Source of the DNA: a virus
Taxonomy: Duplodnaviria > Heunggongvirae > Uroviricota > Caudoviricetes
Virus record (IMG/VR): IMGVR_UViG_2526164669_000031
Length of the DNA: 12,453 nt
Reading direction: 5' to 3' (one strand)
Shown: positions 1 to 11,472 of the stretch, piece after piece
How positions within the stretch are numbered: position 1 is the stretch's first letter
How the letters are laid out: each line of letters begins with the position of its first letter
Program-made: the position numbers and the translations under genes
Notes under the pieces: generated by a model
What the model saw: the letters and a program-made list of their open reading frames with translations, nothing else
What the model was told of the DNA's origin: nothing
The model's database searches: none

Positions 1-1260
1 ATGAAGCTCAACGCCAGACAGGTCGAGACCGCAAAGCCAAAAGACAAAACCTACAAAATGGCCGATGGTGGTGGTTTGTATCTTGAGGTTTCGGCCAAAG
101 GTTCCAAATACTGGCGCATGAAATACAGACGTCCCTCTGACAAAAAAGAGGATCGTCTCGCCTTTGGTGTTTGGCCTACTGTGACGCTTGCTCAGGCAAG
201 AGCAAAACGCGATGAAGCTAAAAAGCTTTTAGTACAGGGCATAGACCCAAAAGTCGTACAAAAAGAAGCTCAGGCCGAGAATTCGGGGGCATATACTTTT
301 GAAACTATCGCCCGAGAATGGCATGCCAGTAACAAGCGCTGGAGTGAAGACCATCGAGCGCGCGTTCTTCGCTATCTTGAGCTTTATATCTTCCCTCATA
401 TCGGTTCGTCCGACATTCGGCAGCTTAAAACCAGCCACCTGTTAGCCCCGATTAAAAAAGTTGATGCCAGTGGCAAACACGATGTCGCTCAGCGCCTGCA
501 ACAGCGCGTCACAGCCATTATGCGTTATGCCGTACAGAACGATTACATCGACTCAAATCCAGCCAGCGATATGGCTGGTGCACTATCGACAACCAAAGCG
601 CGCCATTATCCTGCTTTACCTTCTAGCCGGTTCCCTGAGTTTCTTGCACGTCTTGCTGCATATCGTGGTCGCGTAATGACGCGGATTGCGGTTGAGCTTT
701 CCTTACTAACTTTTGTGCGTTCCAGTGAGTTACGTTTCGCGCGTTGGGATGAGTTTGATTTCGATAAATCTCTCTGGCGAGTACCTGCAAAACGAGAAGA
801 AATTAAAGGAGTGCGTTATTCGTACCGTGGCATGAAGATGAAAGAAGAGCATATCGTTCCGCTTAGTCGGCAAGCGATGATTTTGCTAAACCAGTTAAAG
901 CAGATTAGTGGTGATAAAGAACTGCTTTTTCCGGGGGATCATGACGCAACTAAGGTTATGAGTGAAAATACAGTAAATAGCGCATTGCGTGCGATGGGCT
1001 ATGACACGAAAACCGAAGTTTGCGGGCACGGGTTTAGAACGATGGCGCGTGGAGCATTAGGGGAATCAGGCTTATGGAGTGATGATGCGATTGAACGTCA
1101 GCTAAGTCACTCAGAACGTAATAATGTACGTGCTGCTTATATTCATACATCTGAGCATTTAGACGAAAGGCGTTTAATGATACAGTGGTGGGCAGATTAT
1201 TTAGATAGAAATAAGAAAGAAAGTATTACACCATATGATTTTGCTAGACAACTTAAATAG
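1..1260 (+). CDS. int: Tyrosine recombinase, P4-type integrase
   Basis: 419-aa ORF. The N-terminus (AKPKDKTYKMADGGGLYLEV...KYWRMKYR) is typical of P4-family integrase arm-binding domains. The C-terminus has HGFR and RAAYIH motifs consistent with the tyrosine recombinase catalytic H-x-x-R and Y. ATG at position 1, stop TAG at 1258-1260. Confidence 0.9.
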   Translation: MKLNARQVETAKPKDKTYKMADGGGLYLEVSAKGSKYWRMKYRRPSDKKEDRLAFGVWPTVTLAQARAKRDEAKKLLVQGIDPKVVQKEAQAENSGAYTFETIAREWHASNKRWSEDHRARVLRYLELYIFPHIGSSDIRQLKTSHLLAPIKKVDASGKHDVAQRLQQRVTAIMRYAVQNDYIDSNPASDMAGALSTTKARHYPALPSSRFPEFLARLAAYRGRVMTRIAVELSLLTFVRSSELRFARWDEFDFDKSLWRVPAKREEIKGVRYSYRGMKMKEEHIVPLSRQAMILLNQLKQISGDKELLFPGDHDATKVMSENTVNSALRAMGYDTKTEVCGHGFRTMARGALGESGLWSDDAIERQLSHSERNNVRAAYIHTSEHLDERRLMIQWWADYLDRNKKESITPYDFARQLK

Positions 1261-1266
1261 TATTTT

Positions 1267-1304
1267 AACCTAGCCAGAATTTTTGTAGTCTCGCTGGCTA
1301 GGTT
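1267..1304. terminator. Inverted repeat (11-bp arms AACCTAGCCAG / CTGGCTAGGTT, 16-nt loop) between convergent int and cargo genes; possible bidirectional terminator
   Basis: Arms at 1267-1277 and 1294-1304 are perfect reverse complements. It lies in the 54-bp gap between the int stop (1260) and the stop of the minus-strand gene (1315). There is no clean U-run on either side, so terminator function is uncertain. Confidence 0.35.
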
Positions 1305-1314
1305 AATTTAAAAG

Positions 1315-1899
1315 CTAATCATTCACATCAAGAGTTAAGAGTGCGTGCATTCTTTTAACAATCATAATGATATTCAAAATTAAATGTACGCAAACATATA
1401 TTATGAGTGGGCATAAAAAATAGTATAACACATTTAATTTTAGAGTTGTGTTTATTATGCTGACATAATATTCATGTGTTTTGCCGTAAAAGAATCCTGA
1501 TTGATTGACAGGAAACAGTGATACTATAAAACACAACACGACTAACAAAACTCCACATAAAATTGAATAACAAATGTTATAATAAAGTTCAGTGAGTAAT
1601 GCTTTCTTTGATTCATAGAATGTATCAATATCTTTTCTTTGTCTTATTTTTGATTCTTGATCATATACTAAAACAAGAACGCTAAGCAGTAATGCTGTTA
1701 GTATTGCACTGAAATTAACTAATAATGATATTAAATCTTTTGTTATACCACTTCCTAGGAGTGAGAATGCGGCAGAAATAATAAATGGTAGTATTATGAA
1801 TGTAAATATATCCCATAAACTGATCTTATTAGTGTCAGCATTTTTTAAAGTTCTGAAGTGGCCTATAAGAACTTCGCATATATTTATCTTTGAACTCAT
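1315..1899 (-). CDS. Hypothetical integral membrane protein (194 aa, about 4 predicted TM helices); second gene of the AT-rich cargo cassette
   Basis: Four hydrophobic segments of about 20-25 aa (approx. residues 28-50, 56-78, 105-128, 155-180) separated by charged loops. The ATG at 1899..1897 overlaps the upstream gene's stop as TAATG. An SD-like AAGGAGAG lies 5-6 nt upstream. Stop TAG at 1317..1315. Visibly AT-rich relative to the P4 backbone. Confidence 0.7.
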   Translation of the reverse strand: MSSKINICEVLIGHFRTLKNADTNKISLWDIFTFIILPFIISAAFSLLGSGITKDLISLLVNFSAILTALLLSVLVLVYDQESKIRQRKDIDTFYESKKALLTELYYNICYSILCGVLLVVLCFIVSLFPVNQSGFFYGKTHEYYVSIINTTLKLNVLYYFLCPLIIYVCVHLILNIIMIVKRMHALLTLDVND

Positions 1900-2825
1900 T
1901 ACGCTCTCCTTATAGTAACACCACGATATAACAACTGTATATATTCCATGATAATAACATCAACAAAATTATTTAGTGATGCTATTTCCGGCATGCCATC
2001 ATAAAAAACAACTTGTTCTTCATCAAATAAAATTTCACATACAGCTCCCCTTGCTGTTGTTCCAATATGAAAAGTTCTTTTTCTGCCATTATCTAATTCA
2101 ACAACTGTTTTTACTGTTTCTCCATATTCTTTAAGGACTTCAACGAGTTGATATTGCTCCGAGCCTCTGGAGAAATAGTCTCGAAGTCTTCCAAGTCCTG
2201 CATTTCGAGGCGGTTTGATAATTAATTCTTGCTCGTTATGGCCTAGCTTTTTGGCTTGTTCAGCTACATCTGTAATGCCATGGAATTTAGTTACCTTGAT
2301 TTCTTTGGTAATGGCATCCATCCATTTTTCAATCGCTTTATCATACGCCAGAGGGTTCATTTGAATCACTAAGTTGGTAATCCTCTTGAAATAATCTGAA
2401 AACAATCTCATAAAAAGAGTTTTTATACCATCACCTCTATAGGTATGTAAAAACGCCATGCCTTCATTTACATCTCTAGGAATATAAAAATGTATGTAAT
2501 ATCTAATTATTTCAGCATTGTTTTTTGTCTTTTCGAAGTCTACATCGCCAGTTTCAATGTTTATTATGTCGGTCTTTGTTCCGTAATATCCAGACTCGAA
2601 CCATCCATATATTTCTCGATTGTTGTTATCGCGTGTAATCTCATTAAAACGAAAAACTTGTTTGGTTTCTTCAGAAAGGATATATTCTTCATTATACTGC
2701 TTAATAAATTCATCGAGTATATCAAGTAAATCATGTTCTCTGATGTTACTCAGTGCTGAATAACGTTGTTCTTTGGCTGCGTTCGGATTGTAGCAGCGGA
2801 AAAGATACGGTGCTAAAGCGTGCAT
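1899..2825 (-). CDS. Hypothetical soluble protein (308 aa), first gene of the AT-rich cargo cassette; function unknown
   Basis: Long uninterrupted ORF in an AT-rich region where random ORFs are rare. Strong SD (AAGGAGAT) 5-6 nt upstream of the ATG at 2825. Translationally coupled to the downstream membrane-protein gene. I see no Walker A or other clear catalytic motif. Confidence 0.75.
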   Translation of the reverse strand: MHALAPYLFRCYNPNAAKEQRYSALSNIREHDLLDILDEFIKQYNEEYILSEETKQVFRFNEITRDNNNREIYGWFESGYYGTKTDIINIETGDVDFEKTKNNAEIIRYYIHFYIPRDVNEGMAFLHTYRGDGIKTLFMRLFSDYFKRITNLVIQMNPLAYDKAIEKWMDAITKEIKVTKFHGITDVAEQAKKLGHNEQELIIKPPRNAGLGRLRDYFSRGSEQYQLVEVLKEYGETVKTVVELDNGRKRTFHIGTTARGAVCEILFDEEQVVFYDGMPEIASLNNFVDVIIMEYIQLLYRGVTIRRA

Positions 2826-3059
2826 TGTTATCTCCTTTTTTAATGGAGATTAGCAACTTATCACTATAAGATCAACGAACGTTCAATATGGAAAGGGATA
2901 ATTCTGCTTGGTATTTTTCTTTTAATAATATTGGGGTGCTTTAGTGCGATATTTTGATGATTAGTGTGTGTTCGGCAGTAGAAGCTATCCATAGGCAGTG
3001 ATGTTTCTGCATATAGAATGTTTTAATTATCAAACACATAATTTTCGATTGCGCGCGCA

Positions 3060-3078
3060 GTGCTTTCCCCGCCTCGCC
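3060..3078. other. cos site: P2/P4-type 19-nt cohesive-end sequence
   Basis: GTGCTTTCCCCGCCTCGCC at 3060-3078 is the exact reverse complement of the P2/P4 cohesive end GGCGAGGCGGGGAAAGCAC as I recall it. It is followed by a GC-rich hairpin (CCGCCC...GGGCGG, 3078-3097) and a T-run. Confidence 0.7.
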
Positions 3079-3180
3079 CGCCCGCTTTGCAGGGCGGTTT
3101 TAATGCAGTTGCACAGTCACGCTCAGGCTGCGCCGGGAATGGCGCGGTCTGCAGAGAATGAGGCAGGAAAACGCATGCAA

Positions 3181-3242: not shown

Positions 3243-3815
3243 TTACACAGACTGACGTGATGCCAGTTGCGCACTTTTACGCGAAAAAATCATGTTCTGC
3301 GCAGGAGTGAATTTTTCACGGCTGTCATCCACCGAAGCCGCGTCAGGCCTGAATCCGATGGTCGTTAAAATGTCGCTATCCTGTGCGGAATAATTAATTT
3401 TTTCCCCCTTCGCAAGCCAGGACAGAAGGGCTTCACGCAGGGCATCTGTGGCACGCTGTATGGCACAGTTTCGGGCAATGGCCGTCAGCTCACTGTAGCC
3501 CATCAGCTCCGCTGCCAGTGCCGCCGCCAGTGCTGTGCCGTGCTGCTGCATAAAATCATTCAGCCGGTCGCGGATGCTGATGTGCTGAACGGCTTCATGC
3601 GAACGAATATAACGACCGGCGGCCTGATTCACCTGCCATTTTCTGACTTCGATAATATTGCGTAATTCGTCCAGGCGACTGACGTTTCTGCCTTCTCCTG
3701 ACAGAAGCCGCAGATATTCCTGTTCGGCCGCAGCCAGCTCATTTTTGCGTTGCAGCCATGCTGCTTTGTTATTCTGACAGGTGTCAAAGGCCTGCTGTAA
3801 GGCTGTGCTTTCCAT
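3243..3815 (-). CDS. psu: Psu (polarity suppression / capsid decoration protein), P4-like
   Basis: 190 aa, the length I recall for P4 Psu. Position is immediately downstream of delta in the sid-delta-psu operon. ATG at 3815..3813. Confidence 0.85.
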   Translation of the reverse strand: MESTALQQAFDTCQNNKAAWLQRKNELAAAEQEYLRLLSGEGRNVSRLDELRNIIEVRKWQVNQAAGRYIRSHEAVQHISIRDRLNDFMQQHGTALAAALAAELMGYSELTAIARNCAIQRATDALREALLSWLAKGEKINYSAQDSDILTTIGFRPDAASVDDSREKFTPAQNMIFSRKSAQLASRQSV

Positions 3816-3888: not shown

Positions 3889-4389
3889 TCATTCCAGACG
3901 CAGCGAATATGATTGTGTTTTTAACCGTACTGGCGGCAGTTCCTGTTTTTCATGCAGGCGTTCTGCCAGTTCGTCCGGCGTGACCGGGCGGACAATGAAG
4001 CGGGTGATGGTCTGAAGCGTTTTAAACACCAGACCACAGCCCGGATCCGTGCACACATAAAAACGCTCGGTGACTTCCTGAGACAGACGCCGCGATGTTC
4101 TTGACAGTGCAAGGCCTTTACATCTCCGACAACAATATCCGGTAACAAGCATTCTTTTCGGCCGTTTCATACTGCCGGAGGCCGACGTCAGTGAATCGCG
4201 GTATCTCTGTTTGCCTGAAATGTATTCCATTCCTGAATCTTTACTGTCAGAGAAAAAGCTTTCACTCGCTTCAAATGTCGCAGAGCAATAAATATTCCGG
4301 CACTGTGCAATCATTATCTTGGTGCCATCGTCCATGAAATGTGCGCGACGGGTGTGAGCAACATGTCCACACGACGGGCAGTAAATCAT
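3889..4389 (-). CDS. delta: Delta, late-gene transcriptional activator (tandem Ogr-like zinc-finger domains)
   Basis: 166 aa. Two Cys4 zinc-finger modules are visible (CPSCG...CRNIYC and CCRRC...CTDPGCG). The ATG overlaps the sid stop as ATGA at 4386-4389. Confidence 0.9.
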   Translation of the reverse strand: MIYCPSCGHVAHTRRAHFMDDGTKIMIAQCRNIYCSATFEASESFFSDSKDSGMEYISGKQRYRDSLTSASGSMKRPKRMLVTGYCCRRCKGLALSRTSRRLSQEVTERFYVCTDPGCGLVFKTLQTITRFIVRPVTPDELAERLHEKQELPPVRLKTQSYSLRLE

Positions 4390-5120
4390 GACAGCAGTCC
4401 TCTGGCCTTAAGCTCTGCTCCCTGCTGGTCTATTTTGTCCTGCCACACCTTGCGCTGTGCCGGTGTGCCTGCCACCTCATAATCCATGTGCGGGAGTGTT
4501 GCCGCTGACAGTCCGGCCAGCCGGAGAACCGGCTCGCCGGTGAGGCTGATTTGCATCTGTTTAATTTTCTGTTCCAGCGATGATTTCACCTGCTGCATGA
4601 CAGCCTTATCGGGTGCGACGTAGCCCTGATGGCCGGTGGTGTTGGCGAGCGGATTTTCCTGTACCAGGATTCTCAGATGCATTGCCCGGACAAGCGCCTC
4701 ACAGGTTTCATTCAGGGCGTGTTCCAGCTCATGCTCTGCATACAGACTCAGAAGGTGATGATGTGCCTTCCGGTAGGCGGTGGCCGTGCTGTCACACGCC
4801 CCTTTCAGGCGTTCACGTTCGAAATTCAGCACCACGGCCAGATTGTCATATTCCTGTACCAGCTCCCGGCGTGCCACGCGCTCAATGTGGCGCTGTTTCA
4901 GCTCGTCGCTCAGGACACCACCGGCTGCACGAAAGGCCGTGCGCCAGTCGTCAGCGTCATTTCCGTCGGCCTGCGCCAGCGCATTTTTTTCCTGCTCTGC
5001 CCGTTCAATGGCCGTGACGGTCTCATCCATCAGGCGGGCGTTCTCAAGGTGGGCGGCTCTGGCCTTTTCCAGTTGTGCCAGTGCGGGTTGCAGATATTCA
5101 GGGATGGTGTTGTCAGACAT
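4386..5120 (-). CDS. sid: Sid (capsid size determination external scaffold), P4-like
   Basis: The track ORF 4386..5138 begins with a GTG. The in-frame ATG at 5120..5118 (MSDNTIPEYLQ...) gives 244 aa, the recalled P4 Sid length, and has a GAGGAG SD 7 nt upstream. The protein is coiled-coil rich and is the first gene downstream of the late-promoter motifs. Confidence 0.85.
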   Translation of the reverse strand: MSDNTIPEYLQPALAQLEKARAAHLENARLMDETVTAIERAEQEKNALAQADGNDADDWRTAFRAAGGVLSDELKQRHIERVARRELVQEYDNLAVVLNFERERLKGACDSTATAYRKAHHHLLSLYAEHELEHALNETCEALVRAMHLRILVQENPLANTTGHQGYVAPDKAVMQQVKSSLEQKIKQMQISLTGEPVLRLAGLSAATLPHMDYEVAGTPAQRKVWQDKIDQQGAELKARGLLS

Positions 5121-5154
5121 TTTCCGGCTCCTCGTCACTTCAGGTTAAGAAAAT

Positions 5155-7709: not shown

Positions 7710-7723
7710 AGGAGAACAACACC

Positions 7724-10057
7724 ATGAAAATGAACGTAACTGCCACCGTCAGCCATGCGCTCGGCCACTGGCCGCGTATTCTCCCGTCGCTGGGGATTCA
7801 GGTGCTGAAGAACCGTCATCAGCCCTGTCCGGTCTGTGGCGGAAGTGACCGCTTCCGTTTTGATGACAGGGAGGGGCGCGGCACCTGGTACTGCAATCAG
7901 TGTGGTGCCGGTGACGGCCTGAAACTGGTTGAAAAGGTGTTTGGTGTTTCCCCGTCCGACGCGGCCGCAAAGGTGGCTGCCGTGACCGGCTGCCTGCCCC
8001 CGGCTGACCCGGCAGTGACGGCCGCCGCCGGTGCTGAAACAGAAGCCGCCCGGAAGAACGCCGCCGCACTGGCACAAACCCTGATGGCGAAAACCCGTCC
8101 CGGAACCGGTAACGCCTACCTGACCCGCAAGGGCTTTCCCGGCCGGGAATGCCGGATGCTGACCGGCACACACAGAGCCGGTGGCGTGAGCTGGCGCGCC
8201 GGTGACCTTGTGGTGCCACTGTATGACGACAGCGGCGAACTGGTTAACCTTCAGTTAATCAGTGCTGACGGCCGTAAGCGCACCCTGAAAGGCGGACAGG
8301 TCAGGGGCACCTGTCACACCCTTGAAGGACAGAATCAGGCCGGAAAACGTCTGTGGATAGCGGAGGGATATGCGACCGCACTTACCGTACATCACCTGAC
8401 CGGGGAAACGGTGATGGTGGCGCTTTCTTCCGTGAACCTCCTTTCTCTGGCCAGCCTTGCCCGGCAGAAGCACCCCGCCTGTCAGATTGTCCTTGCTGCT
8501 GACCGTGACCTCAGCGGTGACGGCCAGAAAAAAGCCGCCGCAGCCGCAGATGCGTGTGAAGGTGTTGTTGCCCTGCCACCGGTCTTCGGTGACTGGAATG
8601 ATGCCTTCACGCAGTACGGCGGGGAGGCCACCCGTAAGGCCATTTATGATGCCATCCGGCCACCGGCTGAAAGCCCGTTCGACACCATGAGCGAAGCGGA
8701 GTTTTCCGCCATGAGTACCAGCGAAAAGGCCATGCGTATCTATGAGCATTACGGCGAGGCGCTCGCGGTCGATGCCAACGGCCAGCTTCTGTCCCGCTAT
8801 GAAAATGGTGTCTGGAAGGTGCTGCCGCCACAGGACTTTGCCCGGGATGTGGCCGGGCTGTTTCAGCGGCTGCGTGCGCCGTTCTCCTCCGGGAAGGTGG
8901 CCTCCGTGGTGGACACCCTGAAGCTGATTATTCCGCAACAGGAAGCCCCCTCCCGCCGCCTGATTGGCTTTCGTAACGGCGTGCTCGACACGCAGAACGG
9001 TACGTTCCACCCGCACAGTCCGTCACACTGGATGCGCACCCTGTGCGATGTGGATTTCACCCCGCCGGTGGAAGGGGAAACGCTGGAAACCCACGCCCCC
9101 GCGTTCTGGCGCTGGCTTGACCGTGCTGCCGGTGGTCGTGCGGAAAAACGCGACGTGATTCTGGCCGCACTGTTTATGGTGCTGGCAAACCGCTACGACT
9201 GGCAGCTCTTTCTGGAGGTGACCGGTCCCGGCGGCAGCGGCAAAAGTATCATGGCCGAAATAGCCACCCTGCTGGCCGGGGAGGATAACGCCACGTCGGC
9301 CACCATCGAGACGCTGGAATCCCCGCGTGAACGTGCCGCGTTAACTGGCTTCTCACTGATACGCCTGCCGGACCAGGAAAAATGGAGCGGCGACGGTGCC
9401 GGACTCAAGGCCATCACCGGCGGCGATGCGGTGTCCGTTGACCCGAAATACCGGGATGCGTACTCCACGCACATCCCGGCGGTGATTCTGGCCGTGAACA
9501 ATAACCCGATGCGCTTCACCGACCGCAGCGGCGGCGTGTCACGCCGGCGGGTGATTATTCACTTCCCGGAACAGATAGCCCCGCAGGAGCGCGACCCGCA
9601 GCTTAAGGACAAAATCACCCGCGAGCTGGCGGTCATCGTGCGTCACCTGATGCAGAAATTCAGCGACCCGATGCTCGCCCGGTCACTGCTTCAGTCCCAG
9701 CAGAACTCAGACGAGGCACGGAACATCAAACGGGATGCCGACCCGACGTTTGATTTTATCGGCTATCTGGAAACCCTGCCGCAGACCAGCGGCATGTATA
9801 TGGGGAACGCCAGTATCATCCCGCGTAATTACCGTAAATACCTCTATCACGCCTATCTGGCCTACATGGAGGCAAACGGCTACCGGAATGTACTCAGTCT
9901 GAAAATGTTCGGGCTGGGGCTGCCGGTGATGCTGAAGGAATACGGACTGAATTACGAGAAGCGCCATACCAAACAGGGGATACAGACCAACCTGACGCTG
10001 AAAGAGGAAAGCTACGGCGACTGGCTGCCAAAATGTGACGACCCTGCAACAACCTGA
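7724..10057 (+). CDS. alpha: Alpha protein: primase-helicase with origin-binding domain
   Basis: 777 aa, the recalled length of P4 alpha. N-terminal zinc-binding primase motif (CPVCGGSDRFRFDDREGRGTWYCNQCGAG), a TOPRIM-like segment (IAEGYATAL...VLAADRD) and a Walker A motif (GPGGSGKS, nt about 9226-9249). SD GAAGGAGA at 7708-7715. Confidence 0.95.
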   Translation: MKMNVTATVSHALGHWPRILPSLGIQVLKNRHQPCPVCGGSDRFRFDDREGRGTWYCNQCGAGDGLKLVEKVFGVSPSDAAAKVAAVTGCLPPADPAVTAAAGAETEAARKNAAALAQTLMAKTRPGTGNAYLTRKGFPGRECRMLTGTHRAGGVSWRAGDLVVPLYDDSGELVNLQLISADGRKRTLKGGQVRGTCHTLEGQNQAGKRLWIAEGYATALTVHHLTGETVMVALSSVNLLSLASLARQKHPACQIVLAADRDLSGDGQKKAAAAADACEGVVALPPVFGDWNDAFTQYGGEATRKAIYDAIRPPAESPFDTMSEAEFSAMSTSEKAMRIYEHYGEALAVDANGQLLSRYENGVWKVLPPQDFARDVAGLFQRLRAPFSSGKVASVVDTLKLIIPQQEAPSRRLIGFRNGVLDTQNGTFHPHSPSHWMRTLCDVDFTPPVEGETLETHAPAFWRWLDRAAGGRAEKRDVILAALFMVLANRYDWQLFLEVTGPGGSGKSIMAEIATLLAGEDNATSATIETLESPRERAALTGFSLIRLPDQEKWSGDGAGLKAITGGDAVSVDPKYRDAYSTHIPAVILAVNNNPMRFTDRSGGVSRRRVIIHFPEQIAPQERDPQLKDKITRELAVIVRHLMQKFSDPMLARSLLQSQQNSDEARNIKRDADPTFDFIGYLETLPQTSGMYMGNASIIPRNYRKYLYHAYLAYMEANGYRNVLSLKMFGLGLPVMLKEYGLNYEKRHTKQGIQTNLTLKEESYGDWLPKCDDPATT

Positions 10058-10064
10058 CCCACCT

Positions 10065-10088
10065 GACCGGCATCTGCCGGTCTTTTTT
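10065..10088 (+). terminator. Rho-independent terminator of the alpha operon
   Basis: GACCGG-CATCTG-CCGGTC hairpin (10065-10082) followed by TTTTTT (10083-10088), 8 nt after the alpha stop. Confidence 0.7.
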
Positions 10089-10104
10089 ATCCCTGAATTC
10101 CCCG

Positions 10105-10406
10105 CAGGTGAACAATCCACTGTTCACCCTTCACCGTATATTCACCCGTTATCACACTGAAATTAAAAGAGAAAAATGAAAGGTGAACAGTGTGAACAAT
10201 CAAATCAAAAAAAACTTTTTTTCTCCCTGTGTGATTTTCAGTGCAGGGGACTAATCGCCGGTATGAGTCACACCGGCAGAATGCCGGAGGTGAAGAATCG
10301 AATGTTCACCCTTCACCCATTATTCACCACCTATCACTCTGAAATAAAAGGAGAAAACAGAAAGGTGAACAGTGTGAACAGTTCTTTCGAAAAAAAATTT
10401 TTTATG
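10105..10406. repeat. crr-like cis replication region: two direct repeats of about 120 bp, each carrying TGTTCACC-type iterons and ending in an A/T tract
   Basis: Repeat 1 is about 10105-10228 and repeat 2 about 10287-10406. They share GGTGAA..ATGTTCACCCTTCACC...GAAAGGTGAACAGTGTGAACA and a terminal A(7-8)T(6-8) tract. Iterons at 10107, 10121, 10182, 10303 and 10364, with TGTGAACA variants at 10191 and 10373. Confidence 0.75.
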
Positions 10407-10424
10407 TGGATAAAAGATGCACTG

Positions 10425-10451
10425 GTTTGGATCCGAGCTACGGATCCAAAC
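10425..10451. repeat. Perfect palindrome GTTTGGATCCG-AGCTA-CGGATCCAAAC (11-bp arms)
   Basis: Arms at 10425-10435 and 10441-10451 are exact reverse complements. No adjacent U-run. Located between crr and the attR-like sequence. Confidence 0.5.
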
Positions 10452-10594
10452 TTACTGATTAAAAATGATTTAACTTTCCGATTTATTGATGGGCTGAAAA
10501 TAGATTGGTCAGAAAAACAGTGGGGGCACAAAAGGGGGCATATTTCATTGTTGTGTTTTATTATTTGTTTTTTTATCATTAACTTATTTTGATG

Positions 10595-10634
10595 TTTGAG
10601 TCCGGCCTTCGCACCTTCGCACCTTCGCACCATC
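10595..10634 (+). other. attR-like remnant of a tRNA 3' end (T-arm and acceptor end) with a triplicated CCTTCGCAC 9-mer
   Basis: TTTGAGTCCGGCCTTCGCACC...CACCA resembles the T-arm and acceptor end of tRNA-Leu (leuX; recalled 3' end ...GTTCGAGTCCGGCCTTCGGCACCA), the known P4 target. CCTTCGCAC occurs three times in tandem (10606-10632). The sequence is in the same orientation as int. Confidence 0.55.
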
Positions 10635-10647
10635 GGAACATCAATAG

Positions 10648-10667
10648 ACGTCAACGGACGTTTTTTT
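10648..10667 (+). terminator. Small hairpin plus T7 run directly after the tRNA-like fragment (possible native tRNA terminator)
   Basis: ACGTC-AACG-GACGT (10648-10661) followed by TTTTTTT. The stem is only 5 bp. Confidence 0.35.
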
Positions 10668-10833
10668 ATGACTGAAATCCGCGCCACACAAGGCTTTTCG
10701 CTATTTTTCGCTCAACCTAAGTCAACCTACATCAACTTACTGATGTGGATACAGCTACAGCTGCGGCTATATCCCGATTCGATAATGTTTGTACCCACAC
10801 AAAACCCTTGAAAGGCTACAAGGCTGAAATTCT

Positions 10834-11019
10834 CTAAACCATAGAGATGATTTTTATGATCCAGTCTTTCTCTTGTTGAGATAGTTCCAGTTTGCTCACT
10901 CGTGTTAAGAAGGTATTGATCACCTGAACATCCGAATTGGTGAGCCTATTTAATAGAGTGGGTGGTATACCTTTACTAACTATTGCTTTGCGGTGACTTT
11001 CGTAGTTTTTATTACTCAT
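10834..11019 (-). CDS. Short ORF (61 aa) in the AT-rich chromosomal flank; possible gene fragment
   Basis: ORF only. It is in a different frame from the adjacent 77-aa ORF, so the pair may be a decayed gene. No recognisable motif. Confidence 0.2.
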   Translation of the reverse strand: MSNKNYESHRKAIVSKGIPPTLLNRLTNSDVQVINTFLTRVSKLELSQQEKDWIIKIISMV

Positions 11020-11084
11020 TGGTGATCCTCAAATATCATTGTATGGCGGCATTGATCGTTTCCAGCAACCTTTACTTACTCACT

Positions 11085-11318
11085 TCAAACTGCATCCTCG
11101 TAGACTGTTCCACTACAATAATCGAAAAGGCGTGGATGTCCATTCAGGTATCCCGCTAATACGTATAGCAATAACAATGGCTTATGCGGCGCGCGCTGTT
11201 CACCCTTGTGCCAGATTTTTATATTGGCAATTGCCTGCTGTAGCGATTTACTGGAAGCCATTGATATCCCTGGCAGTGAAATAATTGCGATCATGCTCGC
11301 AAATTTTCGGCTGTTCAA
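11085..11318 (-). CDS. Short ORF (77 aa) in the chromosomal flank; possible gene fragment or pseudogene
   Basis: ORF only. It sits downstream of and on the same strand as the nanS-like gene, in an AT-rich stretch. Confidence 0.25.
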   Translation of the reverse strand: MNSRKFASMIAIISLPGISMASSKSLQQAIANIKIWHKGEQRAPHKPLLLLYVLAGYLNGHPRLFDYCSGTVYEDAV

Positions 11319-11472
11319 GCCTGCAAGTGAAGATATATTACTTTGATCTCATTTGTTTTTTTGCTGCCTGTGTACCCTAATTGCCATGCGATGCTGCACC
11401 GACGCTAACCACCGTTTACGCCGGAGGAGTTAAAAGCGTTGATGGATGCGAATAAATCAAATTAATGAACGC

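What the first reader, a model, noticed from the sequence alone, without database searches (positions are those of the whole stretch)
1899..2825. 308-aa protein with no recognisable motifs: possible sensor or regulator of the cassette
Reading the translation I find no Walker A, no clear nuclease motif and no HTH. It contains an R-x4-H stretch (RKRTFH) that could be a coincidental HEPN-like match. An orphan fold in a known defence hotspot is a good candidate for a novel family.
Basis: inference. Interest (0 to 1): 0.6.

Follow-up and report, generated by a model that had tools for sequence, protein, structure and literature searches.

The report
RexA-like sensor of Rex-type defence
The 308-residue "orphan" protein has the fold of phage lambda RexA and is always encoded with a small four-helix membrane protein, so the pair is most likely a RexAB-type (probably Sucellos-family) abortive-infection anti-phage cassette carried as cargo by a P4-like satellite; this kind of system is known but is not recognised by the annotation libraries searched here.

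Summary

The downstream 194-aa gene, which overlaps by 1 nt, encodes a four-helix membrane protein. A homologue of it follows the target in 45 of 45 related loci, and the two proteins co-diverge (Mantel r 0.83). This is the RexA-plus-RexB architecture.

The family has at least 1352 representatives at 50% identity. It travels on P4 satellites, P2-like and filamentous prophages, small plasmids and two-gene Vibrio integron cassettes. That matches the published description of the validated Sucellos system (SclA/SclB), and the fold evidence matches that for P. putida RexABpp. I could not retrieve either sequence, so direct homology is unproven.

The RKRTFH "HEPN" motif is coincidental: His253 is conserved in 3 of 133 homologues.

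Verdict: a new member of a known kind, of modest interest.

The parts
1899..2825 (-). Gene for the 308-aa cytoplasmic RexA-fold protein, the putative sensor/activator (SclA/RexA-like)
1315..1899 (-). Gene for the 194-aa four-helix inner-membrane protein, the putative effector (SclB/RexB-like in architecture)
   Evidence: ORF. Four hydrophobic segments at about 25-53, 54-81, 104-138 and 155-184. All-helical single-sequence model, low confidence at pLDDT 62.5. A homologue lies immediately downstream of the target in 45 of 45 loci that have downstream DNA. PHROG 15250. No sequence homology to RexB.
2832..2837 (-). Shine-Dalgarno site AAGGAG of the target gene, 6 nt before the ATG at 2825-2823
1897..1911 (-). 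Gene junction. AAGGAG (1906-1911) lies inside the 3' end of the target gene. The TAA stop (1899-1901) overlaps the partner's ATG (1897-1899) as TAATG, which indicates translational coupling.
   Evidence: Overlaps of -4 or -1 nt occur in 23 of 38 related loci.
1261..3052 (.). Variable cargo segment of the P4-like satellite's int-psu hotspot (GC 0.325, against 0.56 for the satellite backbone). It holds the two genes plus a 227-nt AT-rich leader.
   Evidence: Similarity to other E. coli satellites stops at about 1246 and resumes at 3053. Another genome has a SIR2 gene next to psu at this site (H9).
1265..1306 (.). 13-bp perfect inverted repeat (TTAACCTAGCCAG / CTGGCTAGGTTAA) between the convergent integrase and partner genes; a candidate bidirectional terminator
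   Evidence: The function is inferred, not tested.
1..1260 (+). P4-type tyrosine integrase, the left flank of the hotspot
3243..3815 (-). psu (polarity suppression protein), the right flank of the hotspot. It is followed by delta (3889-4389), sid (4386-5138) and the alpha primase (7724-10057, + strand).

Best explanation
The 308-aa protein is the cytoplasmic, RexA-fold component of a two-gene RexAB-type abortive-infection defence cassette, very probably of the Sucellos (SclA/SclB) family. The cassette is swappable cargo in the int-psu hotspot of a P4-like satellite.

Shown here: (a) the protein is predicted to adopt the RexA/RdgC/IML3 two-domain fold; (b) it is co-translated with, always accompanied by, and co-evolving with a conserved 4-TM membrane protein; (c) the pair moves between mobile elements and sits in defence-rich neighbourhoods.

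Inferred from lambda RexAB, RexABpp and Sucellos: the soluble protein forms a dimer that binds DNA or a nucleoprotein intermediate made during phage infection. The conserved basic positions R10, R70, K99, K135, K174, K177, K204, R207, K239, K/R248 and R250 are candidate contact residues. It changes conformation around a hinge near the conserved NPL motif (residues 157-159), and it then activates the membrane partner. The partner oligomerises into a pore or ion channel and depolarises or permeabilises the inner membrane. That arrests or kills the infected cell before phage progeny are released.

For: Sequence. hhalign of diverse profiles gives a colinear match of 141 columns at E 8e-4. It pairs NPL with RexA's EPLM hinge motif and ELIIKPPR with RexA's IEIxIKPK dimer strand. 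The score exceeds 60 of 60 column shuffles.

Partner. It has four TM segments, is present in 45 of 45 loci, overlaps the target as TAATG with its own SD, and co-diverges with the target (Mantel r 0.83, 0 of 2000 permutations).

Context. The cassette lies in the P4 int-psu hotspot, where 6 of 8 randomly chosen unknown loci protected against phages (PMC13586616). Neighbours of homologues include integrases, P2 gpD/gpU, TIR, AbiD, a type III restriction enzyme and PDC candidates. Twenty-two loci are on viral contigs.

Against: This cassette has not been tested experimentally. Sequence-level kinship with RexA is weak: hhalign probability is 24%, and the score of 32.3 is only about 1.8 SD above a block-shuffle null (mean 24.5, maximum 38.9). 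Pfam and PADLOC Rex models find nothing in any of 133 family members, although they detect the lambda proteins at 1e-110 and 1e-61. The partner shows no homology to RexB (E 0.38, equal to the reversed control), so the effector may be analogous rather than homologous. The global Foldseek TM-score to RexA is only 0.30-0.32. The protein is acidic overall (pI 5.6). No convincing sigma-70 promoter was found in the 227-nt leader. Direct homology to SclA/SclB or PP_5643/5644 could not be checked. Two of the eight unknown P4 loci tested in PMC13586616 gave no protection.
Confidence: 0.7

Rival explanations
1. The parts are the same but the roles are reversed, as in the mycobacteriophage Butters gp30/gp31 system or in Kiwa. 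The soluble RexA-fold DNA-binding protein is the antiviral effector, for example by clamping phage DNA and blocking replication. The 4-TM protein anchors, sequesters or senses at the membrane.
For: In Butters, the RexA-like protein is the effector and the membrane protein restrains it (PMC12894663 discussion). Kiwa pairs a 4-TM sensor with a non-specific DNA-binding effector of similar size. The target keeps 11 conserved basic positions and has an RdgC-like clamp fold. For lambda RexA, DNA binding is not strictly required for exclusion (abstract of PMC11077077), so the role of DNA binding in this fold family is unsettled.
Against: In the closest described analogues (lambda RexAB, RexABpp, Sucellos, CarolAnn, Sbash), both genes are needed and the membrane protein is the toxic effector. 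The partner is at least as conserved as the target (51% against 49% mean identity). Its intramembrane motifs are strongly conserved, which suits a pore-forming effector.
Confidence: 0.13
2. The cassette is not primarily a defence system. The RexA-fold protein would regulate the carrier element's own life cycle, as lambda RexA biases the CI/Cro switch toward lysis, or it would act as an RdgC-like modulator of recombination. The membrane protein would serve superinfection exclusion or another carrier function.
For: Lambda RexA acts independently of RexB on the bistable switch (PMC11077077). RdgC, a fold relative, is a recombination modulator. The module is carried almost exclusively by temperate elements.
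Against: The module occurs on carriers with unrelated regulatory circuits: P4 satellites, P2-like and filamentous prophages, integron cassettes and small plasmids. It sits in a slot filled by other cargo in most satellites (one neighbour shown is a SIR2 gene) rather than among regulatory genes. The strict pairing with a membrane protein is not explained by this idea.
Confidence: 0.05
3. The protein is a HEPN-like RNase or another enzyme whose active site includes the RKRTFH stretch.
For: An R-x4-H string is present at residues 248-253.
Against: His253 is His in 4 of 51 close and 3 of 133 broad homologues, and position 248 is more often K than R. The model is mixed alpha/beta with antiparallel sheets, whereas HEPN domains are all-alpha (my own knowledge of the family). 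No HEPN hit appears in Pfam, PADLOC or the structure searches. No conserved His, Cys or Ser catalytic-type positions exist across the family.
Confidence: 0.01

Closest known systems
Sucellos (SclA/SclB), V. cholerae N16961 superintegron cassette, inferred to be VCA0367-0368; Darracq et al., bioRxiv 10.1101/2024.07.02.601686
   Same: It is a two-gene operon of a soluble protein followed by a membrane protein predicted to form a pore. It is structurally similar to lambda RexAB yet not matched by the Pfam Rex domains. In Vibrio both genes lie within one integron cassette, and my family shows exactly this in L005 and L006. Homologues elsewhere lie mostly in prophages, often in Salmonella, and my family has Salmonella members. 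Both genes are required, and the phenotype is abortive infection.
   Different: Sequence homology to SclA/SclB could not be tested, because the sequences were not retrievable with these tools. The one V. cholerae member I found (P0019) is on a filamentous prophage, not in the superintegron. No N16961 entry appeared in the 20 clusters whose source names I looked up. The carrier here is a P4-like satellite in E. coli.
RexABpp (PP_5643/PP_5644), P. putida KT2440 prophage P1; PMC12894663
   Different: PP_5643 reaches 98% HHpred probability to RexA, whereas my family reaches only 24% in hhalign without secondary structure. RexBpp's termini (MLIGQLANP... / ...LYYLGYKLQE) do not obviously match my partner family (MSSKIN... 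/ ...IVKRMHxLLT). Direct comparison was impossible. RexABpp lies downstream of a CI-like repressor, not in a satellite hotspot.
Phage lambda RexA/RexB (Pfam PF15969/PF15968; PADLOC RexA/RexB)
   Same: The predicted fold of the soluble protein is the same: a split globular domain, an inserted dimerisation domain and a C-terminal helix. The gene order is the same, soluble protein then small 4-TM protein. Both are cargo of a temperate element. The presumed sensor-to-channel logic is shared.
   Different: There is no HMM-level sequence similarity for either protein. The partner is 194 aa rather than 142-147 aa. The genes overlap here (TAATG), whereas canonical loci have 12-33-nt gaps. This cassette is not adjacent to a cI repressor; canonical rexAB follows the repressor gene, directly or after one small ORF, in all 7 loci examined.
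Kiwa (KwaA/KwaB)
   Same: It pairs a 4-TM protein with a DNA-binding soluble protein of about 310 aa, and it is a defence system.

Membership tests
Lambda RexAB (canonical Rex) | The soluble protein matches the RexA sequence family (Pfam PF15969 / PADLOC RexA) | tested here: not met
   The target has no hit at E<=1, and none of 133 family members has one. The PADLOC models do detect lambda RexA at 9e-110.
Lambda RexAB (canonical Rex) | RexA fold: a split globular domain (seven-stranded antiparallel sheet) interrupted by a dimerisation domain (four strands plus four helices) | tested here: met
Lambda RexAB (canonical Rex) | Profile-profile sequence homology to the RexA family | tested here: inconclusive
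   hhalign gives probability 24% and E 8e-4 over 141 colinear columns. The score is above all 60 column shuffles but within the range of the block shuffles.
Lambda RexAB (canonical Rex) | A small polytopic (4-TM) membrane partner encoded immediately downstream | tested here: met
Lambda RexAB (canonical Rex) | The partner belongs to the RexB sequence family (PF15968 / PADLOC RexB) | tested here: not met
   No hit. hhalign against 7 RexB sequences gives E 0.38, the same as the reversed control.
Lambda RexAB (canonical Rex) | Location downstream of the cI repressor in a lambdoid immunity region | tested here: not met
   The window cassette lies between the P4 int and psu genes. Seven canonical loci have the repressor gene upstream of rexA-rexB, directly or after one small ORF.
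Lambda RexAB (canonical Rex) | Dimeric non-specific DNA binding by RexA; RexB-dependent membrane depolarisation; phage exclusion | not testable with these tools
   These need EMSA, SEC-MALS, membrane-potential assays and plaque assays.
Sucellos (SclA/SclB) | Two genes, soluble plus membrane protein, within a single integron cassette in Vibrio | tested here: met
   In L005, attC/VCR repeats at 524-648 and 2239-2362 bracket both genes. In L006, repeats at 1185-1319 and 2909-3036 do the same. The feature is met for family members; the window copy itself is on a P4 satellite.
Sucellos (SclA/SclB) | Predicted structural similarity to RexAB without a Pfam Rex match | tested here: met
.
Sucellos (SclA/SclB) | Homologues outside integrons lie mainly in prophages, often in Salmonella | tested here: met
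   22 viral-contig loci. P2-type tail genes and integrases as neighbours. Salmonella members P0003 and P0067, and many in the P0101 cluster.
Sucellos (SclA/SclB) | Sequence homology to V. cholerae SclA/SclB, or a hit to the DefenseFinder Sucellos models | not testable with these tools
   The sequences and models are not available here. The supplement tables are truncated, and there is no N16961 member in the clusters looked up.
RexABpp (P. putida PP_5643/5644) | Sequence homology to PP_5643 and PP_5644 | not testable with these tools
   Only the termini are known, from primers. They were not found among fetched proteins or loci, nor in viral or metagenome contigs.
Kiwa | KwaB DUF4868 plus Rossmann-like domain; KwaA with an intracellular beta-barrel | tested here: not met
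   No PADLOC or Pfam hits. The model has antiparallel sheets with RexA topology.
HEPN nucleases | Conserved R-x4-6-H catalytic motif in an all-alpha domain | tested here: not met
   His253 is conserved in 3 of 133 homologues, and the model is alpha/beta. That HEPN domains are all-alpha is from my own knowledge.

The most novel reading that the evidence does not exclude
The family could be related to neither Sucellos nor RexABpp. It would then be a third, very large clade (at least 1352 representatives at 50% identity) in which a RexA-fold sensor has been joined to a membrane effector unrelated to RexB. That would mean Rex-type sensors have repeatedly recruited different pore-forming partners. 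It would also make this the most widespread Rex-type lineage, still unnamed, carried on five kinds of mobile element (satellites, P2-like and filamentous prophages, integron cassettes and plasmids).
Probability: 0.2. Interest if true: 0.45.

Novelty: new member of a known kind. Interest (0 to 1): 0.3.

Why it matters
It turns two "hypothetical proteins" into a testable defence module, one that RefSeq annotation, Pfam, NCBIfam and PADLOC v2 all miss. Only five RexAB-like systems were counted in the January 2026 literature (PMC12894663). This family has over a thousand 50%-identity representatives, and it moves between satellites, P2-like and filamentous prophages, integron cassettes and plasmids. 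Rex-type abortive infection may therefore be far more common than current annotation suggests. The trigger and gating mechanism of Rex has been unresolved for 70 years, and this family offers many natural variants for studying it. It also adds a data point to the picture of the P4 int-psu slot as a defence reservoir. The kind of system is not new, though, and the family has probably already been named.

Tried and rejected
1. Direct sequence annotation. Pfam, NCBIfam, PADLOC and PDB sequence or profile searches gave nothing meaningful.

2. hhalign of the shallow family profile (Neff 2.9) against the single lambda RexA sequence gave no signal. A weak match appeared only with diverse profiles. 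My shuffle controls show it is motif-driven and not decisive.

3. Homology between the membrane partner and RexB was rejected: E 0.38, equal to the reversed control.

4. Retrieving P. putida PP_5643/5644 for a direct comparison failed. I derived the termini from the published primers, then searched the fetched proteins and loci, viral contigs, a broad profile search and metagenome contigs. All were negative.

5. Retrieving V. cholerae SclA/SclB failed. The supplementary tables were truncated in storage, and cluster look-ups of 20 representatives showed no N16961 entry.

6. The third deep protein search, with the broad alignment, barely extended the hit list.

7. Kiwa was considered because of its similar parts list. 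It was rejected on fold and HMM evidence.

8. HEPN was rejected on conservation.

10. The promoter scan of the cassette leader gave no more hits than chance.

11. Mapping RexA's DNA-contact residues R219/K221 onto the target was abandoned, because the alignment register there is unreliable.

Full report
**1. What is in the window**

The window is a P4-like phage satellite integrated next to a tRNA-Leu gene in E. coli. Its layout is:

| Feature | Coordinates | Strand |
|---|---|---|
| P4-type integrase | 1-1260 | + |
| 194-aa ORF | 1315-1899 | − |
| 308-aa ORF (the finding) | 1899-2825 | − |
| psu | 3243-3815 | − |
| delta | 3889-4389 | − |
| sid | 4386-5138 | − |
| alpha primase | 7724-10057 | + |

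The two-gene block and its 227-nt leader have 32.5% GC, against 56% for the satellite backbone.

The flanks match 2444 of 5426 complete E. coli genomes, but only 7 genomes carry this cargo. Similarity to other satellites ends at about 1246 and resumes at 3053, and another genome has a SIR2 gene at the same site. This is the int-psu defence hotspot described for P4-like satellites (PMC9122126, listed; PMC13586616).

**2.

- The ORF has an ATG preceded by AAGGAG at a 6-nt spacing.
- It has 91 homologous clusters of nearly constant length and 1352 representatives at E<=1e-3 in an exhaustive search.
- Pfam, NCBIfam, PADLOC and PDB sequence searches give nothing. Only PHROGs of unknown function match the two proteins.
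- There is no Walker A motif. RKRTFH is present, but His253 is conserved in only 4 of 51 close and 3 of 133 broad homologues, so it is not a HEPN motif. What is conserved there is a basic G-(K/R)-x-R-T loop.

**3. The fold is not orphan**

An AlphaFold2 model built on 51 homologues is confident (pLDDT 82.4, pTM 0.77).

- **Foldseek.** RexA has probability 0.97, the highest in the PDB search. The global TM-score is only 0.30-0.32. That is what one would expect for a hinged two-domain protein whose crystal form is 'closed'.
- **Layout.** The model has seven strands and two helices, then four strands and four helices, then a long C-terminal helix. This reproduces RexA's split globular domain interrupted by a dimerisation domain.
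- **Sequence.** The link is weak. Diverse profiles align colinearly over 141 columns (E 8e-4, probability 24%). The alignment pairs the family's NPL motif with RexA's EPLM motif at the hinge, and ELIIKPPR with RexA's IKPK dimer strand. The score exceeds all 60 column shuffles but lies within the range of block shuffles.
- **Controls.** PADLOC's Rex models detect the lambda proteins at 9e-110 and 9e-61 yet miss this cassette. None of 133 family members shows even a weak Pfam RexA or RdgC hit.

**4. The partner**

- The downstream gene encodes a 194-aa protein with four hydrophobic helices.
- Its ATG overlaps the target's stop as TAATG, and it has its own AAGGAG site.
- In 48 related loci from genomes and viral contigs, a homologue lies immediately downstream, on the same strand, in all 45 loci that have downstream DNA. 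Overlaps of −4 or −1 nt are usual.
- Pairwise divergences of the two proteins are tightly correlated (Mantel r 0.83, 0 of 2000 permutations).
- The partner has strongly conserved intramembrane motifs but no detectable homology to RexB. The same was reported for P. putida RexBpp.

**5. Carriers and neighbours**

- **P4-like satellites.** The closest relatives are in enterobacterial satellites (L028-L030).
- **P2-like prophages.** Pfam hits to gpD (5) and gpU (4), together with the recurring sizes of the adjacent ORFs in Pseudomonas loci, suggest a position beside the tail genes.
- **Vibrio integrons.** The pair forms a single cassette of about 1.7 kb bracketed by canonical attC/VCR repeats (L005 and L006).
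- **Filamentous prophages.** One V. cholerae copy lies at the end of a filamentous prophage next to rtxA. P. aeruginosa Pf phages also carry it.
- **Plasmids.** Small Acinetobacter plasmids carry it.
- **Neighbouring genes.** These include integrases, AlpA, TIR, AbiD, a type III restriction enzyme, bSEFIR, MzaA and several PADLOC candidate systems.

**6. Comparison with what is known**

- **Canonical RexAB.** It shares the fold and the architecture. It differs in sequence family, partner length, gene spacing and genomic position; canonical loci place rexA-rexB downstream of the repressor gene.
- **Sucellos** (bioRxiv 10.1101/2024.07.02.601686). It is described as a two-gene V. cholerae integron cassette that is RexAB-like in structure but not matched by Pfam. 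Both genes are required, it acts by abortive infection, and homologues lie in prophages, often in Salmonella. Every one of these descriptors fits my family.

I therefore consider the window cassette very probably a Sucellos-family member. I could not obtain the SclA/SclB or PP_5643/5644 sequences to prove this.

Kiwa and HEPN were tested and excluded.

**7. Mechanism**

Shown here: the predicted RexA fold, the obligatory coupling to a 4-TM protein, co-evolution of the two proteins, and a setting among mobile elements and defence genes.

Inferred from the characterised analogues:
- The soluble protein is a dimeric, non-specific DNA- or nucleoprotein-binding sensor.
- It opens around its hinge on infection and activates the membrane partner.
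- The partner oligomerises into a channel or pore.
- Depolarisation or permeabilisation of the membrane aborts the infection.

The main rival, at about 13%, keeps the same parts but reverses the roles, as in Butters or Kiwa.

**8. Verdict**

The finding is a new member of a known kind, and possibly already named. Its main value is as an annotation gap: a very large Rex-type family that the annotation libraries searched here do not recognise.

Noticed in passing
window 3053-3113: The first 60 nt or so of conserved satellite backbone on the psu side contain a GC-rich hairpin (3078-3097, CCGCCCGCTTTGCAGGGCGG) followed by a T-run on the + strand. This short segment alone matches many E. coli genomes at places with no annotated feature (H22-H32). 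It may be a repeated element or a recombination boundary of the hotspot.
   Followed up: no
window 10058-11470: The stretch downstream of the alpha primase has GC 0.40-0.43 and only short ORFs. In the annotated relative NZ_CP020107, the corresponding stretch lists a 111-aa hypothetical protein, a fragment of a phosphorothioated-DNA-binding restriction endonuclease and an HNH endonuclease before nanS. It may be a decayed second cargo or defence region at the other end of the satellite.
   Followed up: no
L001 20549-22851, compared with window around 7710-7724: Strain 13E0767 has an IS21-family element (ISEc12, istA/istB) inserted between the DUF5375 gene and the alpha primase gene. The window lacks this insertion.
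   Followed up: no
L057 8001-9498; phage records OR863247 and OQ658363: The same two-gene module is carried at the end of a V. cholerae filamentous prophage (Zot, gpA-type replication protein) next to rtxA. A homologue of the 308-aa protein is also encoded by P. aeruginosa Pf-type phage genomes. A defence-like module on inoviruses is uncommon cargo.
   Followed up: partly
L005 524-2362; L006 1185-3036: In Vibrio sp. WZ-1 and V. cincinnatiensis, the pair is a single integron cassette of about 1.7 kb flanked by canonical VCR/attC repeats. The same module therefore moves by integron recombination as well as by satellite hotspot exchange.
   Followed up: yes
protein cluster P0101 (302 aa): A second enterobacterial branch of the family is about 35% identical to the window protein. 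It has 298 member sequences in E. coli, Klebsiella, Enterobacter, Citrobacter and many Salmonella. Its genomic context was not examined.
   Followed up: no
window 1265-1306: A perfect 13-bp inverted repeat with a 16-nt loop lies between the convergent integrase and membrane-protein genes. It is a likely bidirectional terminator. The consensus scan missed it because of the loop length.
   Followed up: partly
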